DNA of 57,879 nt, the filler included, from Squatina squatina (taxonomy: Eukaryota): assembly GCA_031763465.1 (NCBI GenBank). It is 3 parts of 3 records of this genome, joined end to end, with 100 filler letters (N's around TTAATTAATTAA, not from the genome) between each part and the next. Parts side by side here need not be neighbours in the genome. Positions count along the whole stretch, not along the records: positions 20,144 to 45,266 come from JARFOE010000203.1; 2 more parts are not named here. The stretch is one strand, 5' to 3'. A program made the position numbers and the translations under genes. The notes beneath the pieces were generated by a model. It searched no databases. It saw nothing but the letters and a program-made list of their open reading frames with translations, and had not been told where the DNA came from. Shown here in pieces: positions 7,454 through 30,789 of this stretch; the stretch's first letter is position 1, and every line of letters begins with the position of its first letter.

Positions 7454-7796
7454 GTCTTACCATGAATTGAGTGGGATGTAAAGGTAACCGCAACATTCCT
7501 GCTGGGTCGATTAGGTGTATCTTCAAGAGAGGAGAGCAAAAAACATTTCTATTATGAGTGGATATGGGCACATATCACATGAAGATCACAAAAAGCACTT
7601 GTTTCTGTGGGGGCTCTCCCACCGCAACTTCGGTGGAAGTTCAGCGGATACCCGGAGAAATGGGAAATTAGGTGAACCCGCCTCTCCCACCGAATTTTTA
7701 CCTCGTCATGTTTAACAGATATTTTTGACATAACTGTACAAATTACAGGTTGGTTTTACTCTCATTTCCTGATCTGCTTTTTGTTTCTTTCAGAAA

Positions 7797-8855
7797 ATGT
7801 TTGCTCGAAAATTCCAACTGGGCAATTCCCGAAATAAAACGGACTATTTTGAATATTACACTCCTGATCCAAACACAATTCCCTGTACACCAGTGATAAA
7901 TCATTCAACCGACATGGCACTGGCTGCTGTCTATAGCCTGGTGTGTTTCCTCGCTGTGGCAGGGAACATGGTCGTAATGATCGTCCTACTTTACAATCGA
8001 CGCACAATATCGTCCACGGACATCTACCTGCTTCATCTGGCCGTAGCCGATCTGCTCTTTGCCGTGACCTTGCCCTTTTGGGCAGTGGATGCCACATCTG
8101 GGTGGGTGTTTGGTGATGCCATGTGTAAGATTATCAGCATGTTACAGGAAGTTAACTTTTACAGTGGCATTCTGTTGCTGGCTTGTATCAGTATCGACCG
8201 CTATCTGGCCATTGTCCACTCTGCACAGTCCCATAAGCAGAAGAGACCGTTTCTAATCAAGCTGGTCTGTGCTGCTGTTTGGGTGCTGGCCATTGTTCTG
8301 TCTTTACCTATTCTGTACAAGGGTGAATACACGCCACCCAGTTCCAACAGAACGATGTGTTATGAGAAACTTGATGGCCAATCGGGTGAAATGTGGAGAG
8401 TAGCCACCAGGTTTACACGCCACTTTATTGGGTTCCTCATCCCACTGGTTATCATGATCTTCTGCTACAGTGTGACGATCCATAAACTGTGTCAAACGAA
8501 GGGATTCCAGAAACAGAAAGCCATGAAGGTCATCATAGCGGTCGTGCTGGCCTTTCTCATTTGTTGGCTGCCGCACAATCTTACTGTGTTCATCGACACG
8601 CTGATGAGGAGCAAACTCATTGATGAGACTTGTGACAGGCAGAATAATATCGACAGAGCTCTGTCTGTAACCCAAATTTTGGGATTCCTGCACAGTTGCA
8701 TTAACCCAATCTTATACGCCTTCATCGGGGTGAAATTCAGGAGGAACCTGGTCAACCTCTTGGCTACGAAAGGAATTAAACAAAGTGGAGATTCACAGTA
8801 CGGGAGATCTGTATCCTCCTCCTCTGAATCTGGGCTCATTCCAAGCACCATATAG
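7797..8855 (+). CDS. CXCR1: CXC chemokine receptor of the CXCR1/CXCR2 (IL-8 receptor) group, intact 352-aa ORF in one exon
   Basis: Seven TM helices with GN, LAVAD, TLPFW, SIDRY, CWLP and HSCINPILY; acidic Tyr-rich N-terminus; Ser-rich tail. Acceptor tttctttcag ends at 7793 and AATAAA lies at 8899-8904. Head-to-head with ARPC2, like human CXCR1. CXCR1 versus CXCR2 is not resolvable by eye. Confidence 0.9.
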   Translation: MFARKFQLGNSRNKTDYFEYYTPDPNTIPCTPVINHSTDMALAAVYSLVCFLAVAGNMVVMIVLLYNRRTISSTDIYLLHLAVADLLFAVTLPFWAVDATSGWVFGDAMCKIISMLQEVNFYSGILLLACISIDRYLAIVHSAQSHKQKRPFLIKLVCAAVWVLAIVLSLPILYKGEYTPPSSNRTMCYEKLDGQSGEMWRVATRFTRHFIGFLIPLVIMIFCYSVTIHKLCQTKGFQKQKAMKVIIAVVLAFLICWLPHNLTVFIDTLMRSKLIDETCDRQNNIDRALSVTQILGFLHSCINPILYAFIGVKFRRNLVNLLATKGIKQSGDSQYGRSVSSSSESGLIPSTI

Positions 8856-19678: not shown

Positions 19679-20043
19679 TTGACGTCCAGGAAGGAATGGA
19701 ACATCTGTACAAGACTCACATCTGCCCTGAATGCAAACGCTGCTTCAAGAAGAGAACCCACCTGGTCGAGCACCTTCACCTGCACTGCCCGGAGCCAAGC
19801 CTCCAGTGTCCCCACTGCCAGAAGTTCTTCACCAGCAAGGGAAAGCTGAAGGTCCACCTGATGCGGGAGCTGGGTGAGAAGACCCACCATTGCCCACTGT
19901 GCGACTACAGCGCGGTGGAAAAGAACTCGCTGAACCGGCACATGGCCAGCATGCACGAAAACACCACCAACTTCTACTCCGATGTGTACTCGTGCCCGGC
20001 ATGCGAGGAGAAGTTCACCATCAGCAACTCGCTGAAGGAGCAC
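19679..20043 (+). CDS. ZNF142: ZNF142 exon with C2H2 fingers, truncated by scaffold end
   Basis: CPECKRCFKKRTHLVEHLHLH, CPHCQKFFTSKGKLKVHLMRELGEK, CPLCDYSAVEKNSLNRHMASMH and NFYSD match ZNF142; acceptor tgccag ends at 19678. Confidence 0.9.
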
Positions 20044-20525: not shown

Positions 20526-20681
20526 CTGATTAGCAAACAGAGTTGTAACGAACTTTCCCGGTTTGAAGATATCCACTACCTTCTTAATCAGGTCAGTGTA
20601 GGAATCCAAGGCTAGATTCGTTTCGAAGCTTACATAGGAGAAGTCAGGCTCTGGCGTGATGTGAACCGTCCAATATGTTCC
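20526..20681 (-). CDS. AMD1: S-adenosylmethionine decarboxylase (AMD1-like) exon
   Basis: 156 bp with tag and gtgag boundaries. Encodes [52 protein letters not shown]. Family assignment is secure; may be a paralogue. Confidence 0.9.
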
Positions 20682-21223
20682 CTAAAGTTATGCAGAGACA
20701 AAGAAAGAAGTAGCTGNNNNNNNNNNNNNNNNNNNNNNNNNNNNNNNNNNNNNNNNNNNNNNNNNNNNNNNNNNNNNNNNNNNNNNNNNNNNNNNNNNNN
20801 NNNNNNNNNNNNNNNNCTGGAATCGCTGATTGCGTCCAAAGCAGAAAATCTACTGCACTATTCCACTCTCAGTGCATCACTGTTAATAAGGCAAAGGGTC
20901 GATCTAATCCATTGCAAACAGATCCGCATTTCCACCTTCATTTAAAACAGAAAACGATTCAAAGTCTACTTTGTAACTCTTAAAGTGATAGTCATACTGT
21001 CTGCTGTGTTCACTGAGCAGAATTATGCTTAAGGGCTATTAAACATCTGTCACAAAGGCGTTATGTGTCATTTTATGGAACCACTAACCAGATTTTTTCT
21101 CAGTTCTTATTTTAAACGCTGTTGATGCATTAACAGGCTACCGATCTCAGAAGATTGTTTTTCATGATGGCCCGTGCAATGAAATATTTGGATGTTTGCT
21201 TGTCTGTGTAGCTGAGTACTTAC

Positions 21224-21316
21224 ATCTGCTTTCAGTCCATTCATAGAGTAGCCACAGGGATTGAACATTGTGGCATCTATTACCGAGCCGGGTATCAGGT
21301 CACGTATCCCACTCAT
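21224..21316 (-). CDS. AMD1: S-adenosylmethionine decarboxylase (AMD1-like) exon
   Basis: 93 bp with cag and gtaagt boundaries. Encodes [31 protein letters not shown] and splices in frame to the exon at 20681. Confidence 0.92.
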
Positions 21317-21703
21317 CTGAGAAAACAGATCATTTTAGGAAAGTGTAAGGCACATTAAGCTCCAGTTATGTGTCTATAATCATCTGTGCCCAGCCTATAT
21401 GACATGTTGGTTTTGAGGCTGGAGTTTTGGAATTCTGAGCATTCTCAAAATGGCTACAGATCCAAACGACAAAGGATTTTACTTTTCAATTTGTTGCATA
21501 CCTGCTTTCAGTTCTGCAAAATAAGCCAGACTTCATCCCACGTGAAGCATGACTAAGAAATTGCAAAGTTTCTGAGTGTGCCGTGCTGAAATGTTTTCTA
21601 ATTATCCCTTCAAATTGCACTTTATGGTGTTTCTTTTTACAACTGTATTTCCCAAAGAAGGCATAGCAATTATATCACAATGTGCCATTGTCTTGGATTC
21701 ACC

Positions 21704-21886
21704 ATGTCGGAAGCACAGAGAGTTCCGTTTTGCCCGTTGGCAAGAATCGCTGAGTTCGCAGCAGGAGAACTGAGAAGAAGATTCCATCTGAATTCCACAC
21801 TTGCAGAGCTCTACAATGGAGTCTCTATCACTATTCACCAAGTGTTAGAACCCAAAGCTTTCTGCTGTCAGGAGAACCAGAGTTCT
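21704..21886 (+). CDS. Candidate coding start of an unidentified protein
   Basis: caccATG context; 61 codons open up to the gap (MSEAQRVPFCPLARIAEFAAGELRRRFHLNSTLAELYNG...); not a repeat I recognise. Confidence 0.3.
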
Positions 21887-24104
21887 NNNNNNNNNNNNNN
21901 NNNNNNNNNNNNNNNNNNNNNNNNNNNNNNNNNNNNNNNNNNNNNNNNNNNNNNNNNNNNNNNNNNNNNNNNNNNNNNNNNNNNNNAATCTTGATAGCTG
22001 TTAATGTCGCACGGCAGAATGTTTTGCCCGCTTGAGTGCCCGCCAAAACTGGGAAAAGCTCACCATTCCCCAGACGTGGCTACTTTTCTAAGGAAACAGT
22101 CTGAGTTTTACAGGAAATGGGTTCTAAAAACACACAATCCCTGATTCCAACTTCAGTGATTTCTCGATAATTTTTCTTTAACGCAAAAGCTAAATGTATG
22201 CTGCATGCAACTGTAATTTCAATGAGCTTTTCATGGGCTGACATCACATCACGGTCTAATTGCTGCAACTATATTTATTGATTTGAAGAACATATTTTGA
22301 GCACAAAAATACCTAAGCACACATCACACAACAAAAACCTAATTAGCGCCTGTTCTCTCGCTGGGTGCACTGGAACGAAAGCAAACGATGCACCATTAAA
22401 TCCATCTTTTCCTCACTTACCCAATTCATTTTAGTTGTTAATTTCCTGATCTCCCATGGCATTACACACAGGCAGTCTGGAGTCTGGAATATAGATATGA
22501 TGATTAGTGTGTTCCCATCCTACCCAGGGGGTGGGCGCATGGCGGGGTGGGGAGGGGGCGATGGGTGGGGAGGGGAGAGTGGAGGAAGAGGACTGGGTGT
22601 GCAGCATCGCGGAGGGGAGGGGAGAGTGGGCGACAGAATGTTAAAATTAAAACCACTGGGCCTTCAGATTGCAGTTCATGGATGTGATTAAATGTGATGC
22701 CAGCTGTTCTGAGAGAGAACACTTATTTCCTGGACCTGAATTCCAATTGGAAAGCTGTATGTGTGAGAATTTTTTTCTGTCCAATTTTGCAATGTGCCTT
22801 TGTAGCCTAGGATTAAAAAAAAAATTACAGTACAGCTTATGATTCACAGTGAAAGCCACAATTTCCGGTTTGTACGCCCAGCCGTGCCTGTCTAACCCTG
22901 TAGTAGACCAAGGAGAAAGAGCTGGCATTAATTAAAACAATTCTGGGAGTGGAAATCTATCAGAGTGACACTGGTAAACTCTCGGAGTCCATTACTTAGT
23001 TATGCCTTTTTATTCAGGGAAAGTCCAGATACACAACGGAACCTGGAGAATGAAGCAGAACTCAAGCCTTAGGCAGCAGAGAGATGGTCACGGGAAACTT
23101 CTTAAGAGTTATTTTTGACATACAGTGGCTGGTTCTGCCAATATATTTAGTGNNNNNNNNNNNNNNNNNNNNNNNNNNNNNNNNNNNNNNNNNNNNNNNN
23201 NNNNNNNNNNNNNNNNNNNNNNNNNNNNNNNNNNNNNNNNNNNNNNNNNNNNGTTTCTATTGTTGTGGTTGCATCCGTCCAGGTGAGTTGTGAGTCCTCC
23301 ATCTCGCTCTTGACTTGAGCCGTACAGTGAGACTTTAAGGTGTCAGGGGATAAGGAACTTTTCATTGAGTACCCAGCTTCTGACCTGCTTTCGTAGCCAC
23401 AGTGTTGATATCACATGAATCCTGACACCCAGAGGCATTCTCTGCGTTGTGTATGTTTCAAATTTACAATTATAGTTATGGTCAAAATAATTTAACTGGC
23501 AACTTTTGGGATTTCAAATTGGTGCATAGTGGGGATAAAGTGCACCCAAAAGTTCTTGAAGGAGGCTAATAAACAAGAACAAATTGTCTCTGGCAACATG
23601 GTAAATTCAATAACACATAATTAGTTAATGGAGAATGATACTTGCAGCCTTGTGCAGTCATCCGACAGATGAGATAATTGGAGATCAGTTAATTGTCTTT
23701 TTTCCCCAACTGCTAATCATTTGAAATGGGTTACTGCAATAGCCTGTGACAAGTTCTTCAATGGCGTTGCTGCCGTGTCAATGAGAGATGTAATGCTGCA
23801 GGTAAACTATGAAGTTAAGTCAAACCCACGTAGTATTTGACATGGATTGCTTTCATTCACACTGAGAGCATTCTGTCTGTTTGAATGATTTTTCTGCTTA
23901 GGTGTGAAGATAAAAATTGAAAGTGATGAGCTCTTTGGTCTTCTCCAACAGATGTAATAATTACAGTGTTGTGAATATCTCCCTGACTGGTGTTAACATC
24001 TCCTTTCCAGCTTTATCATTTGTGTTTAATTTTCACAAAAGTTTAGCATTTTCTGAAATCCTGTACTTTTCCAAAGCCAATTATTTCAACACTGCTTTTC
24101 TTAA

Positions 24105-24420
24105 CACCAAGCACTCAAAACCCGTGACCTCTACCACCTAGAAGGACAAGAGCAGCAGGCGCATGGGAACACCACCACCTGCAAGTTCTCCTCCAAGTCA
24201 CACACCATCCTGACTTGGAAATATATCGCTGTTCCTTCATCGTTGCTGGGTTAAAATCCTGGGACTACCCCCCTCACAGCACTATGGGAGCACCTTCACC
24301 ACACGGACTGCAGCAGTTCAAGAAAGTGGCTTACCACCACCTTCTCAAGGACAATTAGGGATGGGCAATAAATGCTGGCCTTGCCCAGTGACGCCCACAT
24401 CCCATGAACGAATAAAAAAG
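24105..24420 (+). mobile_element. CR1-like LINE 3' end
   Basis: Typical tail ending ...gggcaataaatgctggccttgcccagtgacgcccacatcccatgaacgaataaaaaa. Confidence 0.75.
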
Positions 24421-24469
24421 AAAAATTAGCAATTAAAGCCACATCAGGGAAAAATAATATAAAGTTCAA

Positions 24470-24685
24470 ATTAAAAGTGCCATAGCTGAATGCATGAAGC
24501 ATTCGCAACAAGATAGATGAATTAATCATGCAAATAGATGTAAACGGGTGTGATATAATTGGGATTACGGAGACATGGCTGCAAGGTGACCAAGGATGTG
24601 AACTGAACATCCAGGGGTATTCAATATTTAGGAAGGACAGGCAAAAAGGAAAAGGAGGTGGGGTAGTGTTGCTGGTTAAAGAGGA
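24470..24685 (+). mobile_element. CR1 ORF2 endonuclease N-terminus
   Basis: SIRNKIDEL...DIIGITETWL...IQGYSIFRKDRQKGKGGGV. Confidence 0.88.
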
Positions 24686-24785
24686 NNNNNNNNNNNNNNN
24701 NNNNNNNNNNNNNNNNNNNNNNNNNNNNNNNNNNNNNNNNNNNNNNNNNNNNNNNNNNNNNNNNNNNNNNNNNNNNNNNNNNNNN

Positions 24786-25140
24786 CTTTACAGCCAATGA
24801 AGTACTTTTGGAGTGTAGTCACTGTTATAATGTAGGAAACGCGGCAGCCAATTTGTGCACAGCAAGCTTCCACAGCAACGTGATAATGACCAGATAATGT
24901 GTTTTTGTTATGTTTGAGGGATAAATATTGGCCAGGACACCAGGGATAACTCCCCCGCTCTTCTTCAAAATATTGCCATGGGATCTTTTACATCTACCTG
25001 AGGGGGCAACTGGGCCTCGCTTTAACATCTCATCCAAAAGATGGCACCTCCAACAGTGCAGCACTCCCTCAGTATTGCACTGGAGTGTCAGCCAGGATTT
25101 TTGTGCTCAAGTCTCGGAGTGGGACTCGAACCCACAATCC
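24786..25140 (-). mobile_element. SacSINE1/DeuSINE-like SINE
   Basis: Minus strand has a tRNA-like B box (gggttcgagtccc), then a Deu-like domain (cactccagtgcaatactgagggagtgctgcactgttggaggtgcc...gatgagatgttaaa), then a tail shared with 38385-38572. Confidence 0.8.
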
Positions 25141-25457
25141 TTGCCAAAGCCACGTCTCCGTTAATGCTATTAATATACAGCCGCACCCCCACCCCAATTT
25201 TGCCTCAAGCCCACTTTTTGTGTTCAGAACACTTTTTTTATGTATTTATTTTCATGCAAGTCAAACCTGCCTCCTGTCTGACGGTCTTTTTAAATCCCTA
25301 TTTTTCAAGTTTCTTTTGCTGGTTGACTGGACAGGATGTAGTCTAGAAGGTGCTATCGTGAAGAAATCTGATGGCATTACAAAATTTCAATCTTTGCATT
25401 TTGAAGTGAGCATTTATAGTTCGTGGCTGTTCAGCTGTCTTCTTTAATTCTTAACAG

Positions 25458-25592
25458 GTAAATATGCCGAGGATATCTTTGGTGAGCTATTTAGGGAAGC
25501 AGGCAGCTTTGCTACTAGGGTAAACAGCCTTGGAGAACGGATTGACCGTCTGCAGGTTAAAGTAACACAACTCGATCCCAAAGTAGAAGATG
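25458..25592 (+). CDS. WASF2: WASF2 (WAVE2) SCAR/WAVE-homology-domain exon
   Basis: 135 bp with cag and gtaag boundaries. Encodes [44 protein letters not shown]; [11 protein letters not shown] is WASF2-like. Confidence 0.88.
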
Positions 25593-25937
25593 GTAAGAAT
25601 GGCCTTGTGGCATAATTTGTGTTCATTTAGAGATCATGTGAATGTTGCTTTCTTTTAATGTTGGGTTCATATAAAACATCTGGTAGTTGTGCAAAGAAAA
25701 CCTCTTCATTCTGTGCTGTTATCTCTGTTCATGCCTTAATTTAGAAGCACCTACAAACTCTCTGCCCTTTCCGCCCCCAGACCAGCAGAGCGTCATCACT
25801 TTGCTGACTTTTTTTTTAACTTAACTTCAAGTCCTGTGTCAATAATTAAGATTGCAAAACCACAAGACAGCACCAGTAGCTGACACAAATGGCTCAGCTT
25901 CGGTCTAGTAAACGAGTACTAATCTTAAAATGCATAA

Positions 25938-26080
25938 CAACGTTCCCTTTAAGCTGTGCAGCTGCACAGCGCTCCGGGGTCCTGCGCAGCTGCTGAGCCG
26001 GCTTTTAAATTGGAAAGAAGACGTGCATGGCCGGACTTTGACCGGGCCGTGCAGTCCAAAAAAAATTATGGGTAACGTTG
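25938..26080. mobile_element. MITE-like non-autonomous DNA transposon, copy 1
   Basis: Imperfect terminal inverted repeats caacgttccctttaa and ttatgggtaacgttg; cataa on both flanks; inverted homologue at 34912-35069. Confidence 0.75.
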
Positions 26081-26442
26081 CATAATATTTTTTTTTTCTA
26101 AACACATTTTCAAGTTGACCTTAATTACATATTTAAGAAAATGAGAAACACACCCTAATCTCACCAAATATTTTTGTGGTGTGTGTTCATCTGAAAAATA
26201 CGAGAATTAAAAAAATCGTATTGCTGCTAGTTTAGGTGCACGGTGATTGAATGCATTGAAGGAAAGACTTGTTTTTGCTATTTGCATCTGGCAAATATTA
26301 AAATAAAAATGTAATTTGGTGAATTTTGAGGCGGGTTAATGCTGGCCAGTGGAGCAATGTCTTCAGGCACTCAGTGTGTGCATTGAGCATTCTCTGGTCA
26401 AGGGCAGTCCAGATTAGATTGAGTAAATCAAAATATAAAATA

Positions 26443-27070
26443 CTAGCCAGAGGGCTGTAACATGCCTAGTAGAAAGATGAGGTGCTGTTCCTCAAGCTTG
26501 CGTTGAGCTTCAGTGGAACAGTGTAGGAGGCCAGGACAGAGAATGCAACCCTGCATTTGGACTTGCACTTGGAGGTGTCCAGCAAAATGATCGCCCAATT
26601 TGCATTTGGTGCCCCTGATGTAGAGGAGACTGCAGCGAGTAGGGTACACTAGGTTGGAAGAAGTGCAAATAAAATTGCTGCCTCACTCGGAAGTAATGTT
26701 TGGGGGAACCAAGTCGGTGGGATGGAAGGAAGAGGAAGGACAGGTCTTGCCTTGCGGGATGGTTCTTGGGGCAGGATCGCAATCCTGGCTGAGGGAAAAG
26801 GGTGTTTTGGAAGCTCTGATGTGGAAGCTGGCAACATTGGAGCTGCTGCGACTGAGCCAGAGAAGCTGGGAGAAGGGAATGGAGTCCTTGCAGGAAGTAG
26901 CTGTGGGAGCCAGTGGGCTTGTAGGAATCAGTGGACGGTTCATCCTCAGAGATGGAGATAGGGAAGAGAAGAATCAGCGATGGACCATGTAAAGAAACGG
27001 GAGGAAATTGGAAGCAAAATGAATGAAATTCTCCATCTTGGGACGAGAGGAAACTGCACCGACGAATCAA
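26443..27070 (-). mobile_element. Penelope-like element remnant (RT end plus GIY-YIG endonuclease)
   Basis: CSLLYIRGTKCKLGDHFAGHL and RKLEEQHLIFLLGMLQPSG resemble the PLE GIY-YIG C-terminal motifs. Confidence 0.8.
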
Positions 27071-27322
27071 GCTCCCACTCTACCTCAATAACGTGCCCTA
27101 ATCTCAGACCCTAAATCAGAGCAGCAGTGTGACATGGTTCACTTGCTACACCACTCATTCTGAGTGAGATTGCCAAGTTGCAGGCAGTAACTTTGTGTTG
27201 TGCGATCATCCACCCCATCCCCAGCAGCTTTAGCACCAGCCAGGCGAACTGCACTGGGGTTCTGTGCAAGTGCACACGTGCAGACCGGGTTGAGATTTTC
27301 TAAACGCATACATTACTTATAT

Positions 27323-27347
27323 GTGTGTGTGTGTGTGTGTGTGTGTG
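27323..27347. repeat. (TG)n microsatellite
   Basis: About 12 TG units. Confidence 0.95.
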
Positions 27348-28028
27348 AACTTACTGTGAAATATTTTCAATTACATTGGTAGCAGTNNNNNNNNNNNNNN
27401 NNNNNNNNNNNNNNNNNNNNNNNNNNNNNNNNNNNNNNNNNNNNNNNNNNNNNNNNNNNNNNNNNNNNNNNNNNNNNNNNNNNNNNACCTATTTTCTATG
27501 TTTTCTATGTTTCTATATCATGCTAAAGTCAATCACTGTAGAGACAGAACTGTAGGTCCACAGTTCTCCTTTCACGGCATTGCAGTCTAGCTGTGGGGAA
27601 AACTTACTTATATGTGTTTATGGGACTGTTTTGGCAGACAGTGAAGCTGAGAACCGGAATGTTGCGGGTGGCGTTACAATCGAGATACGTCTACAGACGC
27701 CTTAAGTTTATTATTAGATTGTGTGTTCTTTTGATTTGTTGAAAATTTCTGAATGCCCTTTCAATTTTGTCTGACTTCATAGCAACAGCTCTCATTGTAG
27801 AATAGTGCAAAATCTGACAACAGAATGAAATCTGATTGCAGAGGCGCTGGCATAATTTGTCCCGTGTGATTTGAGGGCACTAATATTTTATCAGTCTCCA
27901 GCATTAACCTGCTGTTGCATTCACCGTGTTTAATCTTAAGCCGAAAAAAGGACCGAGTCCGATAACCTCTATATTTTTAATGTAAATGACAAACCGAACA
28001 TCTCAAATCTATTTTGTTTATTCAATAG

Positions 28029-28183
28029 GCTTCCAGCTTCGTAAAGTTGAAGAGCAGCGAGAACAAGAGGAAAAGCGGGACCGGGTCGGAAATGACGTGG
28101 CCACGATCTTGTCGCGACGTATAGCAGTTGAATACAGCGATTCTGAAGAATCGGAATTCGATGACGAGGAATGGTCTGACTAG
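28029..28183 (+). CDS. WASF2: WASF2 last coding exon (end of WH2, central and acidic regions)
   Basis: tag acceptor; (G)[58 protein letters not shown] and WSD fit WASF2. AATAAA at 28564-28569. Confidence 0.9.
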
Positions 28184-29644
28184 GACGGGCTATTCTGACA
28201 TAGTAATCGACAGATGCCAATAATTCTTCTGTTTGAAAAGCCAAACTTTTTCCAACAGTGCCTTCACACATAGATGTAGTACTCTAATGTATTATTTGCA
28301 CAGGATGTGAATCTGTTGGGGAAGATGCATGTCAGACAAGAAATCACTTGGCGATATTGTGGAGGGCTTATTATATCTGAAGTGCCACATTTACAATAAG
28401 CAATAAGATAGACTTGTCCACGTAGGATCACCATATGCACTGCACGCACACACATTACAACAAGAAGGAGGATGAGCGTGCTACAAACCGCTGGATTACT
28501 AAAATGAACGCAGCTTGCTGCCTTGTACCAGACTTTAATTGCAGTGCACACACTCATCCCATGAATAAAATAATGTATTTATCAGCCAATATTTTCTTCC
28601 ATTTAAATTAATGATATTCTGCCTTTTAATCAAATACTGTAGTTAGAATGATGGAATTTTATAATCTGTTGCACATCAACTATATAAAAATGTATATGCA
28701 GATATAATTTAGAGTCCATATTCTCACATTTGCTAGTGCTAACTGGGCTTATCCAAATCCTTTCCAATAGTCTCCACACAATCATACCAACCTGTCTTCT
28801 GTGCATTTAACAATGCCACCAAAGTGCTTTATTGAACAAAGTTTTTAAAGGGAACATGTGTAAAATGTGTTTTGTAGGAGTCTTCAGGCCTTAATAATTT
28901 TATTTTTTAATATGGCAACATGGTGCTAAAATAATGTACCAACAGCTTGTATTAATTGCCTACAGGTACACACTGGTAATCTTCTGTAAGGAAGTGTGGA
29001 ATGGTAGACCAAAAATGACTCTAAACTTCTGAGGGGACTGCAATTTAATCTTTGCTTAGTTTACATCATTTGTAGGTGTTTCTACATCTTGCTTATGCAA
29101 TCATTCAACGAATAGATGTGAGGAGAGAGCTTCACTGACAAACTATGCAAATTCAGCACCAATCAAAACTAACACAAGATGCACAATAACGTAATTGATA
29201 GTGCTCCAAATATCTTGATCTAAAGTTTAACAGATTATTTTCTTAGTGTTTTTTCTGGTGAATTTTGTACTTGTACAGCATCATTCATAATTGGGTAGCT
29301 GGGTTCATGAAATTCTATAATTTCCTCCCCTCTTTTGGTCTTTTAGGGGTCGGGGAATTGCATTTAAAATCTGGAGTTACTCCGAGTAATTTCAATAGGA
29401 CTTAACCAAGACTTATTGTAGCAGGGATACTCACAAGAATGTATTTAATTAGAATTGTATGTAACTAAAGATCATGTGCAGAGTTTGCTATGGAAATTCC
29501 TTTTTTAAGGAATTCTTATGGAGGATTTTAAAGAGGATGNNNNNNNNNNNNNNNNNNNNNNNNNNNNNNNNNNNNNNNNNNNNNNNNNNNNNNNNNNNNN
29601 NNNNNNNNNNNNNNNNNNNNNNNNNNNNNNNNNNNNNNNAGGAG

Positions 29645-30146
29645 CTAGACATCACTGGGCGACCGGGACCTGAAGGAAAGCTTAGGCGACAGGCAGCCAC
29701 AACACACTCTCCACAACACCTTCTGGATATCTTGGTTCCGGTACGCATATATGACTGGGTTGAGCAGGGAATTGTAGATGGCTGGTAGGAAAGTAACGTA
29801 GGTGTAGAGAGACGGGTAGGTGTAGTCTCCCATCAGGCAGTATATCGCAAAGGGCAACCAGCAGATTGCAAAGGCTCCCAGGATGACTGCGAGCGTGGAG
29901 ATCCCTTTCCTCGTTGTCACATAGTGGGAAGTAGCGAGGAAGTGACGCTGGAGAGCAATCTGGTGAGCGTGTCTGCAGACAATCTTGCAGATCTGCATAT
30001 ACAGCTGCAGCATCATCCCGAATACCATGAAAAAGGTGATGGACAGGATGATCAGATTGTTCTTGGTGAGCGGCGTGACGATGCTGCAGGAGGAGATGTC
30101 TTTTAGACAGTTCCAGCCCATGATGGGGAGCCGACCGAGGCAGATG
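29645..30146 (-). CDS. GPR3: GPR3-like orphan GPCR, TM4 to C-terminus (5' part lost in gap)
   Basis: RHAHQIALQRHFL, TRKGISTL, CWLPF and NPVIY place it in GPR3/6/12. QDIQKVLW and FRSRSPSDV fit GPR3. Convergent with WASF2, as in human. Confidence 0.85.
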
Positions 30147-30789
30147 NNNNNNNNNNNNNNNNNNNNNNNNNNNNNNNNNNNNNNNNNNNNNNNNNNNNNN
30201 NNNNNNNNNNNNNNNNNNNNNNNNNNNNNNNNNNNNNNNNNNNNNNATCAATCAAAAAGAAATGGGCTTCTTATTACAAATGGCCTTTCCCCCATCTTCC
30301 TAAAATTTCCATTGTGGATTTGGACTCACGTAGTTTACTGTCCTCCCAAATATTAGCACCATCTTGTGGACTGTCTTAGATTGTTCACACAAATATAATT
30401 ATGTAAAGTAAGATTTTCTAGTTCTTTCTTTTTCTGGATCAGTTTGCTATATCTCAGCAAAATTGATGTAGAAATTTGAGTTCACCTATCTTGTTGCCAC
30501 CCGTTTGGAAGTGAAACACATTAGTGCGGATTTTGTGAGGCTATGTTTGTGCATATTGGACAGCAACCGCCAGAGACTGCGTATGCACAGTTAAACGTGG
30601 AAATCCGTCATTTGCTTTCTGAGATGGTCTGCTCTTCCAAAAGCTGTGCGAAAACACGATTTTGCCATCTGATGCACCATTCAAATGTATTGAACGACGT
30701 GAAGTTCCTGTATTTACCTCATAGATAAGGACTAAATTCAACAAAAATAGTTAGGGCTAGTCCTTTCCAGTCTAATTGCCCCTTTCACT

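What the first reader, a model, noticed from the sequence alone, without database searches (positions are those of the whole stretch)
20526..30146. Candidate retained ohnologue of AMD1 on the WASF2-GPR3 paralogon
Seen: AMD(-), WASF(+), GPR(-) in one scaffold, with WASF2- and GPR3-type diagnostic residues. Known: human AMD1 lies at 6q21 in the order GPR6(+), WASF1(-), ..., AMD1(+), the same order and orientation as here, while the human WASF2-GPR3 block at 1p36 has no AMD gene. The exon differs from human AMD1 in a segment I recall as well conserved ([13 protein letters not shown] vs NLSQTSYDDLIRK), and it has introns, so it is not a retrocopy. Inference: a second SAM decarboxylase from the vertebrate genome duplications, lost in mammals, implying an extra layer of polyamine control.
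Basis: partly seen in the sequence, partly recalled or inferred. Interest (0 to 1): 0.7.

Follow-up and report, generated by a model that had tools for sequence, protein, structure and literature searches.

The report
Second SAM decarboxylase gene in sharks
This shark carries a second, intron-containing copy of the polyamine enzyme gene AMD1, shared with other sharks and the chimaera, likely left over from an early vertebrate genome duplication and likely lost in bony vertebrates, and it keeps AMD1's upstream control peptide while lacking AMD1's long readthrough tail.

Summary
Confirmed and extended. The window holds exons 7-8 of an S-adenosylmethionine decarboxylase gene, two WASF exons and half of GPR3. 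The genome has a separate AMD1 beside WASF1 and GPR6. The window's copy belongs to a clade that public annotation labels 'AMD-like' in 8 cartilaginous fishes, chimaera included. It shares a chromosome with GPR3 in 7 of 7 assemblies where this could be checked. Trees place the duplication before the shark/bony split (shark-only origin rejected, p-AU 0.022). Four flanking paralogue pairs (REV3L/AHDC1, WASF, GPR, FOXO) match in order and orientation. Seven of nine exons were found, all open; catalytic residues are kept; RNA-type contigs of close relatives splice it. No bony-vertebrate member was seen, so the loss likely covers all bony vertebrates, not only mammals. New here: the copy keeps the MAGDIS upstream ORF but has an in-frame stop 16 codons after its stop codon, whereas shark AMD1 stays open for at least 56 codons (the readthrough tail). 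Verdict: a real but ordinary kind of thing, a likely 2R ohnologue kept by cartilaginous fishes; auto-annotated, not found described in the papers searched; the regulatory asymmetry rests on one genome.

The parts
20526..20681 (-). AMD-like gene, coding exon 8 (52 aa; holds the H243/T245/E247, E256 and F285 equivalents)
   Evidence: (PF01536, E 1e-19)
20682..21223 (-). GT-AG intron 7 (542 bp as assembled, with a 100-N gap inside)
   Evidence: skipped exactly by contigs of runs X1 and X4, two studies
21224..21316 (-). AMD-like gene, coding exon 7 (31 aa; holds the F223/P225/C226/S229 equivalents)
   Evidence: spliced to the exon-6 sequence of contig C602301 in X1 and X4 (loose ends)
25458..25592 (+). 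WASF (WAVE) internal coding exon, WASF2 by position and elimination
28029..28183 (+). WASF last coding exon (WH2 end, central and acidic region, stop)
29645..30146 (-). GPR3, 3' half of the ORF (166 aa and stop); 5' half lost in the gap at 30147

Best explanation
The window holds part of a second, spliced S-adenosylmethionine decarboxylase gene of cartilaginous fishes, likely born with AMD1 in the jawed-vertebrate (2R) genome duplication, likely lost in bony vertebrates, and predicted to encode an active, putrescine-stimulated enzyme that is likely still braked by its MAGDIS upstream peptide but not by a readthrough tail. Shown: two loci in this genome; an old clade shared by sharks and chimaera; the same chromosome as GPR3 in other assemblies; matching flanking paralogues; conserved catalytic and putrescine-site residues; the MAGDIS uORF; an in-frame stop 16 codons into the 3' UTR. 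Inferred: whole-genome rather than segmental origin, 2R rather than 1R, self-cleavage to a pyruvoyl enzyme that supplies decarboxylated SAM for spermidine and spermine synthesis, polyamine sensing by the uORF, and retention through partly divided regulation or expression.
For: Two loci. All 7 recovered exons (261 aa) are open, with canonical splice sites, and each is at least as close to AMD-like as to AMD1 proteins; exon 8 separates them weakly (45-49 vs 42-46 of 52), exons 6 and 9 strongly. Clade in 8 species. Same chromosome length as GPR3 in 7 of 7 assemblies with both values; adjacent RefSeq accessions in 2, within 45 in 3 more. AMD1 shares a chromosome with GPR6 in 9 of 9 sharks with both values listed. 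Shark and bony AMD1 form one clade (99/97) without AMD-like; a shark-only duplication is rejected, p-AU 0.022. Block match: C4 REV3L(+) AMD1(-) WASF1(+) GPR6(-) FOXO(-) against C203 AHDC1(+) AMD-like(-) WASF(+) GPR3(-) FOXO(-); REV3L and AHDC1 share DUF4683. Four GPR and four FOXO loci lie on the same four scaffolds. GPR3 and GPR6 are sisters (99/98), which fits the younger round. 25 of 26 checked positions are identical in all six AMD-like proteins and in mammalian AMD1. 90-91% identity between shark and chimaera copies. Splicing in RNA-type contigs. uORF. Tail.
Against: The AMD tree alone cannot tell 1R from 2R: the jawed-vertebrate clade has 58/48 support, and lamprey fits with either copy (p-AU 0.32, 0.31). 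The AU test used the simpler LG+G4 model on 17 rows. Gene order in this genome comes from a heavily gapped scaffold, and other assemblies were checked only through chromosome length and accession numbers. Exons 1, 3, 5 and 6 lie on unplaced contigs and are assigned by sequence (exon 6 also by RNA); exons 2 and 4 were not found, so a lesion there is not excluded. The RNA contigs are 95-99% alike, so probably from relatives, and their RNA status is a guess of the tool. The missing tail is seen in one genome only, and the role of the AMD1 tail is itself unsettled (PMC8831848). Absence in bony vertebrates rests on listed protein hits (120 of 3404 and 120 of 199), not on genome searches.
Confidence: 0.8

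Rival explanations
1. The gene arose by an old segmental duplication or transposition before the shark/bony split, or in the first (1R) rather than the second genome duplication.
For: The AMD tree does not resolve the position of lamprey. At 20 fixed differences lamprey shares the AMD-like residue 9 times and the AMD1 residue 6 times.
Against: Four flanking pairs match in order and orientation, within a four-fold set of GPR/WASF/FOXO scaffolds. GPR3 and GPR6 are sisters to the exclusion of GPR12. PMC8065388 (passages) derives GPR3/6/12/12L from the two rounds.
Confidence: 0.12
2. The copy is a decaying or catalytically dead paralogue in this species, or acts as a non-catalytic partner of AMD1, like the trypanosome prozyme (recalled).
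For: Exons 2 and 4 were not found. No AMD-like record was seen for 12 rays, carpet sharks and horn shark that have an annotated GPR3, which suggests repeated loss. This genome and the sawshark have M instead of K at position 74.
Against: All 7 recovered exons are open; 23 of the 24 checked positions visible in them match mammalian AMD1 (read). AMD1 itself is missing 5 of 9 coding exons in the same searches, so gaps are expected. Splicing is seen in relatives.
Confidence: 0.05
3. The duplication happened only in the cartilaginous-fish lineage, or the link to WASF2-GPR3 is a scaffolding artefact.
For: The copy is seen only in cartilaginous fishes. The scaffold is made of about 1-kb pieces.
Against: The AU test rejects one chondrichthyan clade, p 0.022. 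Shark AMD1 is closer to mammalian AMD1 (82.5%) than to its shark paralogue (77.7%). 7 of 7 other assemblies put it on the GPR3 chromosome.
Confidence: 0.03

Closest known systems
Vertebrate AMD1 (eukaryotic AdoMetDC, PF01536; human structures such as 1JL0)
   Same: Family, 72-78% identity, nine-exon layout as far as recovered, cleavage site E67-S68, active-site and putrescine-site residues, MAGDIS uORF.
   Different: Separate clade and chromosome; 20 fixed differences; shorter C-terminus; no long in-frame tail in this genome; seen only in cartilaginous fishes.
Ohnologues kept in chondrichthyans and lost in bony fishes (PMC10115646 reports 19 such genes, such as wnt6b and cspg5)
   Same: Same evolutionary pattern.
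   Different: AMD1 does not occur in that paper's main text or in the supplement text I could search; the list of 19 genes itself was not in what I saw, so it may or may not be on it.
RefSeq/UniRef 'S-adenosylmethionine decarboxylase proenzyme-like' records of sharks and Callorhinchus
   Same: These are the orthologues of the window's gene.
   Different: Automatic labels only. The same label on sturgeon, salmon, sole and buffalo records marks members of the AMD1 clade.
Mouse Amd2 and human AMD pseudogenes (retrocopies; recalled)
   Same: A second AMD locus.
   Different: This gene has introns at the AMD1 positions and an upstream promoter motif shared with AMD1, and it predates the shark/bony split.
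Trypanosomatid prozyme (inactive AdoMetDC paralogue; recalled)
   Same: A paralogue beside a canonical AdoMetDC.
   Different: Catalytic and processing residues are all kept here.

Membership tests
Eukaryotic AdoMetDC (PF01536) | Profile match above the curated cut-off | tested here: met
   Exon 8: 71.2 bits against a cut-off of 22.2
Eukaryotic AdoMetDC (PF01536) | Glu-Ser self-cleavage site giving the pyruvoyl group; catalytic Cys, His and two substrate-binding Glu (roles from PMC1282579 passages; residue numbers recalled) | tested here: met
   E67, S68, C82, S229, H243, E11, E247, F7, F223 are kept in 6 of 6 AMD-like proteins and in this genome's exons
Eukaryotic AdoMetDC (PF01536) | Putrescine-activation site of the mammalian enzyme (residue list recalled) | tested here: met
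   E15, K80, F111, S113, D174, T176, E178, E256, F285, Y318 kept in 6 of 6; F111 and S113 lie in exon 4, not found in this genome
Eukaryotic AdoMetDC (PF01536) | Proenzyme processing and decarboxylase activity | not testable with these tools
   Needs recombinant protein
AMD1 orthologues | Groups with shark and bony AMD1 and lies in the WASF1-GPR6 block | tested here: not met
   Outside the AMD1 clade; AMD1 proper is on C4
AMD1 orthologues | MAGDIS uORF in the 5' leader (PMC13025110) | tested here: met
   Exact uORF 124 nt upstream of the start codon on contig C683526; 2 pattern matches in the genome, 0 for the control. Its presence in the mRNA was not shown
AMD1 orthologues | About 127-codon in-frame readthrough tail (PMC13025110) | tested here: not met
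   First in-frame stop at codon 16, 6 stops in 340 nt; this genome's AMD1 has 0 stops in the 168 nt before a gap (74 of 10000 shuffles). One genome only
Vertebrate ohnologue (1R/2R) | Duplication older than the chondrichthyan/osteichthyan split | tested here: met
Vertebrate ohnologue (1R/2R) | Lies in a paralogon with other duplicated pairs | tested here: met
   REV3L/AHDC1, WASF, GPR6/GPR3, FOXO pairs; chromosome-level support in 7 of 7 other assemblies
Vertebrate ohnologue (1R/2R) | Duplication younger than the split from invertebrate chordates, and assigned to one round | tested here: inconclusive
   AMD tree unresolved at this depth; the GPR tree favours the younger round
Retrocopy (Amd2 type) | No introns | tested here: not met
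   Spliced GT-AG introns
Prozyme-type inactive paralogue | Loss of processing and catalytic residues | tested here: not met

The most novel reading that the evidence does not exclude
After 2R the two AMD copies divided their translational controls. AMD1 kept both the MAGDIS uORF and the readthrough-and-stall tail, described as universal in vertebrates; the chondrichthyan ohnologue kept only the uORF. It would be the first natural tail-less vertebrate AdoMetDC, a higher-output isozyme, possibly for tissues with high spermidine demand such as those that make polyamine-bearing aminosterols, and a built-in control for the open question of what the tail does.
Probability: 0.3. Interest if true: 0.6.

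Novelty: new member of a known kind. Interest (0 to 1): 0.4.

Why it matters
AMD1 is a rate-limiting polyamine enzyme usually treated as a single-copy gene in vertebrates (recalled). An old second copy shows that the jawed-vertebrate ancestor likely had two and that bony vertebrates likely lost one. It also dates the MAGDIS uORF to before the duplication. If the missing tail holds across sharks, the pair offers a natural comparison, in one cell, of an AMD mRNA with and without the readthrough stall whose purpose is debated. As a kind, an ohnologue kept by sharks is a known pattern and the gene is already auto-annotated, so the surprise is moderate.

Tried and rejected
No RNA holder was listed for this exact sequence; the four runs are RNA by guess only. 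Laying them on exon 9 and the 3' UTR gave one contig that ends 5 nt past the stop, so the tail could not be checked in a second species; X2 gave nothing in either call, and X3 only a 35-base intronic match. No remnant of the AMD1 tail was detectable in the paralogue's 3' UTR (995 of 1000 shuffles scored as high). The end of this genome's AMD1 tail lies in a gap, so the K..R..F clamp could not be checked. A search for exons 4-5 found exon 5 of both copies and exon 4 of neither. No named full-length WASF2 reference was available: PDB gave WAVE1 and one weak WAVE2 peptide hit, E 0.23. The Src-family exon left of AHDC1 matched SRC better than FGR, so I do not count it as an FGR/FYN pair. Placing lamprey with either copy was not rejected. 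Literature: searches returned 0 papers; one search returned 5 plant papers; one search listed 15 of 34, none on a shark AMD duplicate by title or abstract start. One review looked up by a recalled id was not held. The whale-shark supplements were searched in 12 of 24 files, without a hit. Earlier findings of this scan: nothing in 3 look-ups. No structure or complex was predicted: at 72% identity to solved human structures a pass would only reflect that likeness.
Full report
Where the finding lies. The window is a pack of three stretches; the finding is in the middle one, 20144-45266, which is part of scaffold C203 of G000, a 1.5-Gb assembly in 1.15 million contigs. The stretch is 19 pieces of 262-3218 bp joined by N runs, so distances within it are not real and its order may have been imposed by scaffolding (inference). 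The closest named proteins are from sharks.

Observation. Two AMD exons with canonical borders lie at 21224-21316 and 20526-20681 on the minus strand, two WASF exons at 25458-25592 and 28029-28183 on the plus strand, and the 3' half of a GPR at 29645-30146 on the minus strand. Exon 8 scores 71 bits on PF01536.

Two AMD genes in this genome. The family search gave 4 matches and the protein search 9. One locus, on scaffold C4, is of the AMD1 type (exons 2, 5, 8 and 9 found). The other is the window's: exons 7 and 8 here, exon 9 about 10 kb further along C203, and exons 1, 3, 5 and 6 on four unplaced contigs. All 7 recovered exons, 261 residues, are open and have canonical splice sites; exons 2 and 4 were not found. 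Each exon is at least as close to the 'like' proteins as to AMD1; exon 6, for example, matches 42-47 against 33 of 48 residues, while exon 8 separates them only weakly. In exon 8 the two copies differ at 15 of 20 four-fold sites, as expected of an old split.

The same gene in other cartilaginous fishes. The best hit was a sawshark 'S-adenosylmethionine decarboxylase proenzyme-like' protein. A related cluster of 19 sequences, of which 15 were listed, holds the same gene from Callorhinchus, white shark, basking shark, two catsharks, smooth-hound and sevengill shark: 8 species in all. Shark and chimaera copies are 90-91% identical, against 93-94% for AMD1 and 76-78% between the paralogues.

Age. 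In a 42-row tree, shark and bony AMD1 form one clade (99/97) and the six 'like' proteins another (98/98) outside it. In a 17-row subset under LG+G4, forcing all cartilaginous-fish copies together was rejected (p-AU 0.022). Joining lamprey to either copy was not rejected (0.32, 0.31), and the jawed-vertebrate clade had only 58/48 support. So the duplication predates the shark/bony split, but the AMD tree does not name the round.

Neighbours. The window's GPR falls in the GPR3 clade (100/98), the C4 receptor in GPR6, the C80 receptor in GPR12, and GPR3 and GPR6 are sisters (99/98). WASF exons map to C203, C80, C58 and one unplaced contig, and the C4 gene is of the WAVE1 type; WASF2 for the window is therefore by position and elimination. 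Read along the scaffolds, C4 has REV3L(+), AMD1(-), WASF1(+), GPR6(-), FOXO(-) and C203 has AHDC1(+), AMD-like(-), WASF(+), GPR3(-), FOXO(-). REV3L and AHDC1 both carry DUF4683. All 4 FOXO matches and all 4 GPR loci lie on the same four scaffolds. PMC8065388 (passages read) derives GPR3, 6, 12 and 12L from the two vertebrate rounds. That human 6q21 and 1p36 show these orders, with no AMD gene at 1p36, is recalled and was not tested.

Independent linkage. AMD-like and GPR3 records give the same chromosome length in 7 of 7 species with both values; the sawshark records carry no length, and an older catshark draft has the two on separate short scaffolds. Accessions are consecutive in sevengill shark and smooth-hound, within 45 in the two catsharks and basking shark, 234 apart in Callorhinchus and about 1,600 apart in white shark. 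AMD1 and GPR6 share a different chromosome in 9 of 9 sharks with both values. This is indirect, but it does not depend on this assembly.

Distribution. A full-length query found 3404 proteins, of which 120 were listed; after the 'like' clusters, identity fell straight to the 76-77% of AMD1. Of 214 AMD proteins held, 23 scored higher on a 'like' profile than on a shark-AMD1 profile: 18 chondrichthyan 'like' records (6 of them used to build the profile), the 2 window exons, and 3 invertebrate-type proteins by tiny margins; none was from a bony vertebrate. Coelacanth, lungfish, sturgeon, paddlefish, teleost, amphibian and amniote records all belong with AMD1. Twelve rays, carpet sharks and the horn shark with an annotated GPR3 showed no 'like' record, though 4 cluster members were not listed. 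Loss in bony vertebrates, and again in some elasmobranchs, is likely but rests on protein collections.

Is it working? 25 of 26 checked positions, covering the cleavage site, the active site and the putrescine site (roles from PMC1282579 passages; numbers recalled), are identical in all six 'like' proteins and mammalian AMD1; the exception is K74, M in the sawshark and in this genome. Contigs from two runs of two studies skip exactly the exon 7-8 intron; loose ends continue into exon 6 (both runs) and exon 9 (one run) sequence. They are 95-99% alike and RNA only by the tool's guess, so this shows splicing probably in close relatives.

Regulation. The exon-1 contig carries an exact MAGDIS upstream ORF 124 nt before the start codon; the pattern occurs twice in the genome, the second time on another unplaced contig behind a TATA box, which I take to be AMD1's leader. 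PMC13025110 (passages and section 8 read) describes MAGDIS as the spermidine-sensing brake, and a 127-residue readthrough tail with a stalling clamp as conserved across vertebrates. This genome's AMD1 stays open in frame for the 56 codons before a gap (74 of 10000 shuffles do so), whereas the paralogue meets a stop at codon 16 and has 6 stops in 340 nt. A second species could not be checked, and PMC8831848 (passages read) shows that the tail's proposed mechanism is unsettled.

Mechanism, with its basis. Shown: gene, clade, block, residues, uORF, short 3' frame. Inferred: an ohnologue of the jawed-vertebrate round that self-cleaves to a pyruvoyl enzyme, is stimulated by putrescine, feeds spermidine and spermine synthesis in parallel with AMD1, answers to polyamines through the uORF, and escapes whatever limit the tail sets. 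Why sharks kept it is open; a link to squalamine-type aminosterols (search listing only; the spermidine moiety is recalled) is a lead without evidence.

Novelty. Ohnologues kept by cartilaginous fishes are a known class: PMC10115646 counts 19 lost in bony fishes. AMD1 was not found in its text or searchable supplement, but the list itself was not among what I could see and one file could not be read; 12 of 24 supplement files of PMC8455134 were searched without a hit. Searches for a described shark AMD duplicate found none; most subscription journals are not covered. The gene is auto-annotated in RefSeq. Verdict: real, a new member of a known kind, interest 0.4; the tail asymmetry is the part worth following.

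Noticed in passing
L008:264-275 and L064 (minus strand, upstream of each MAGDIS uORF): Both AMD upstream regions carry the same ACTACAnnTCCC motif (recalled as a ZNF143/THAP11 site); 0 matches in 302,516 other bases held. This suggests that the promoter was duplicated with the gene.
   Followed up: partly
L015, L020, L063 (G000:C58:2.52-2.55 Mb): A fourth GPR (outside the GPR3, 6 and 12 clades; probably GPR12L/GPR185) next to a fourth, WASF3-like WASF gene, with a FOXO on the same scaffold: the fourth copy of the block, with a WASF that humans lack (recalled).
   Followed up: partly
L026 (G000:C203:303-307 kb) and L041 (G000:C4:1.44 Mb): AHDC1 and the REV3L insert both carry DUF4683 and sit at matching places in the two blocks, which points to AHDC1 as a block paralogue of the non-catalytic part of REV3L.
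   Followed up: partly
L016:981- (G000:C4:1604181-1604668): GPR6 has a frame break at a short N run, probably an assembly flaw.
   Followed up: no
L028 and L037 (G000:C203:354 kb and 417-420 kb): A FOXO exon (FOXO6 by position) and a Schlafen AlbA_2-domain gene (SLFNL1-like, recalled) lie to the right of GPR3.
   Followed up: no
protein records: No AMD-like record was seen for rays, carpet sharks or the horn shark, although their GPR3 is annotated: possible secondary losses within elasmobranchs.
   Followed up: partly
window 7773-8852 (+), first stretch: A 360-residue open frame of a chemokine-receptor-like GPCR (CXCR1/2-like by recalled motifs); another stretch of the pack, unrelated to the finding.
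   Followed up: no
window 19680-20043 (+), first stretch: A C2H2 zinc-finger exon cut by the joint.
   Followed up: no
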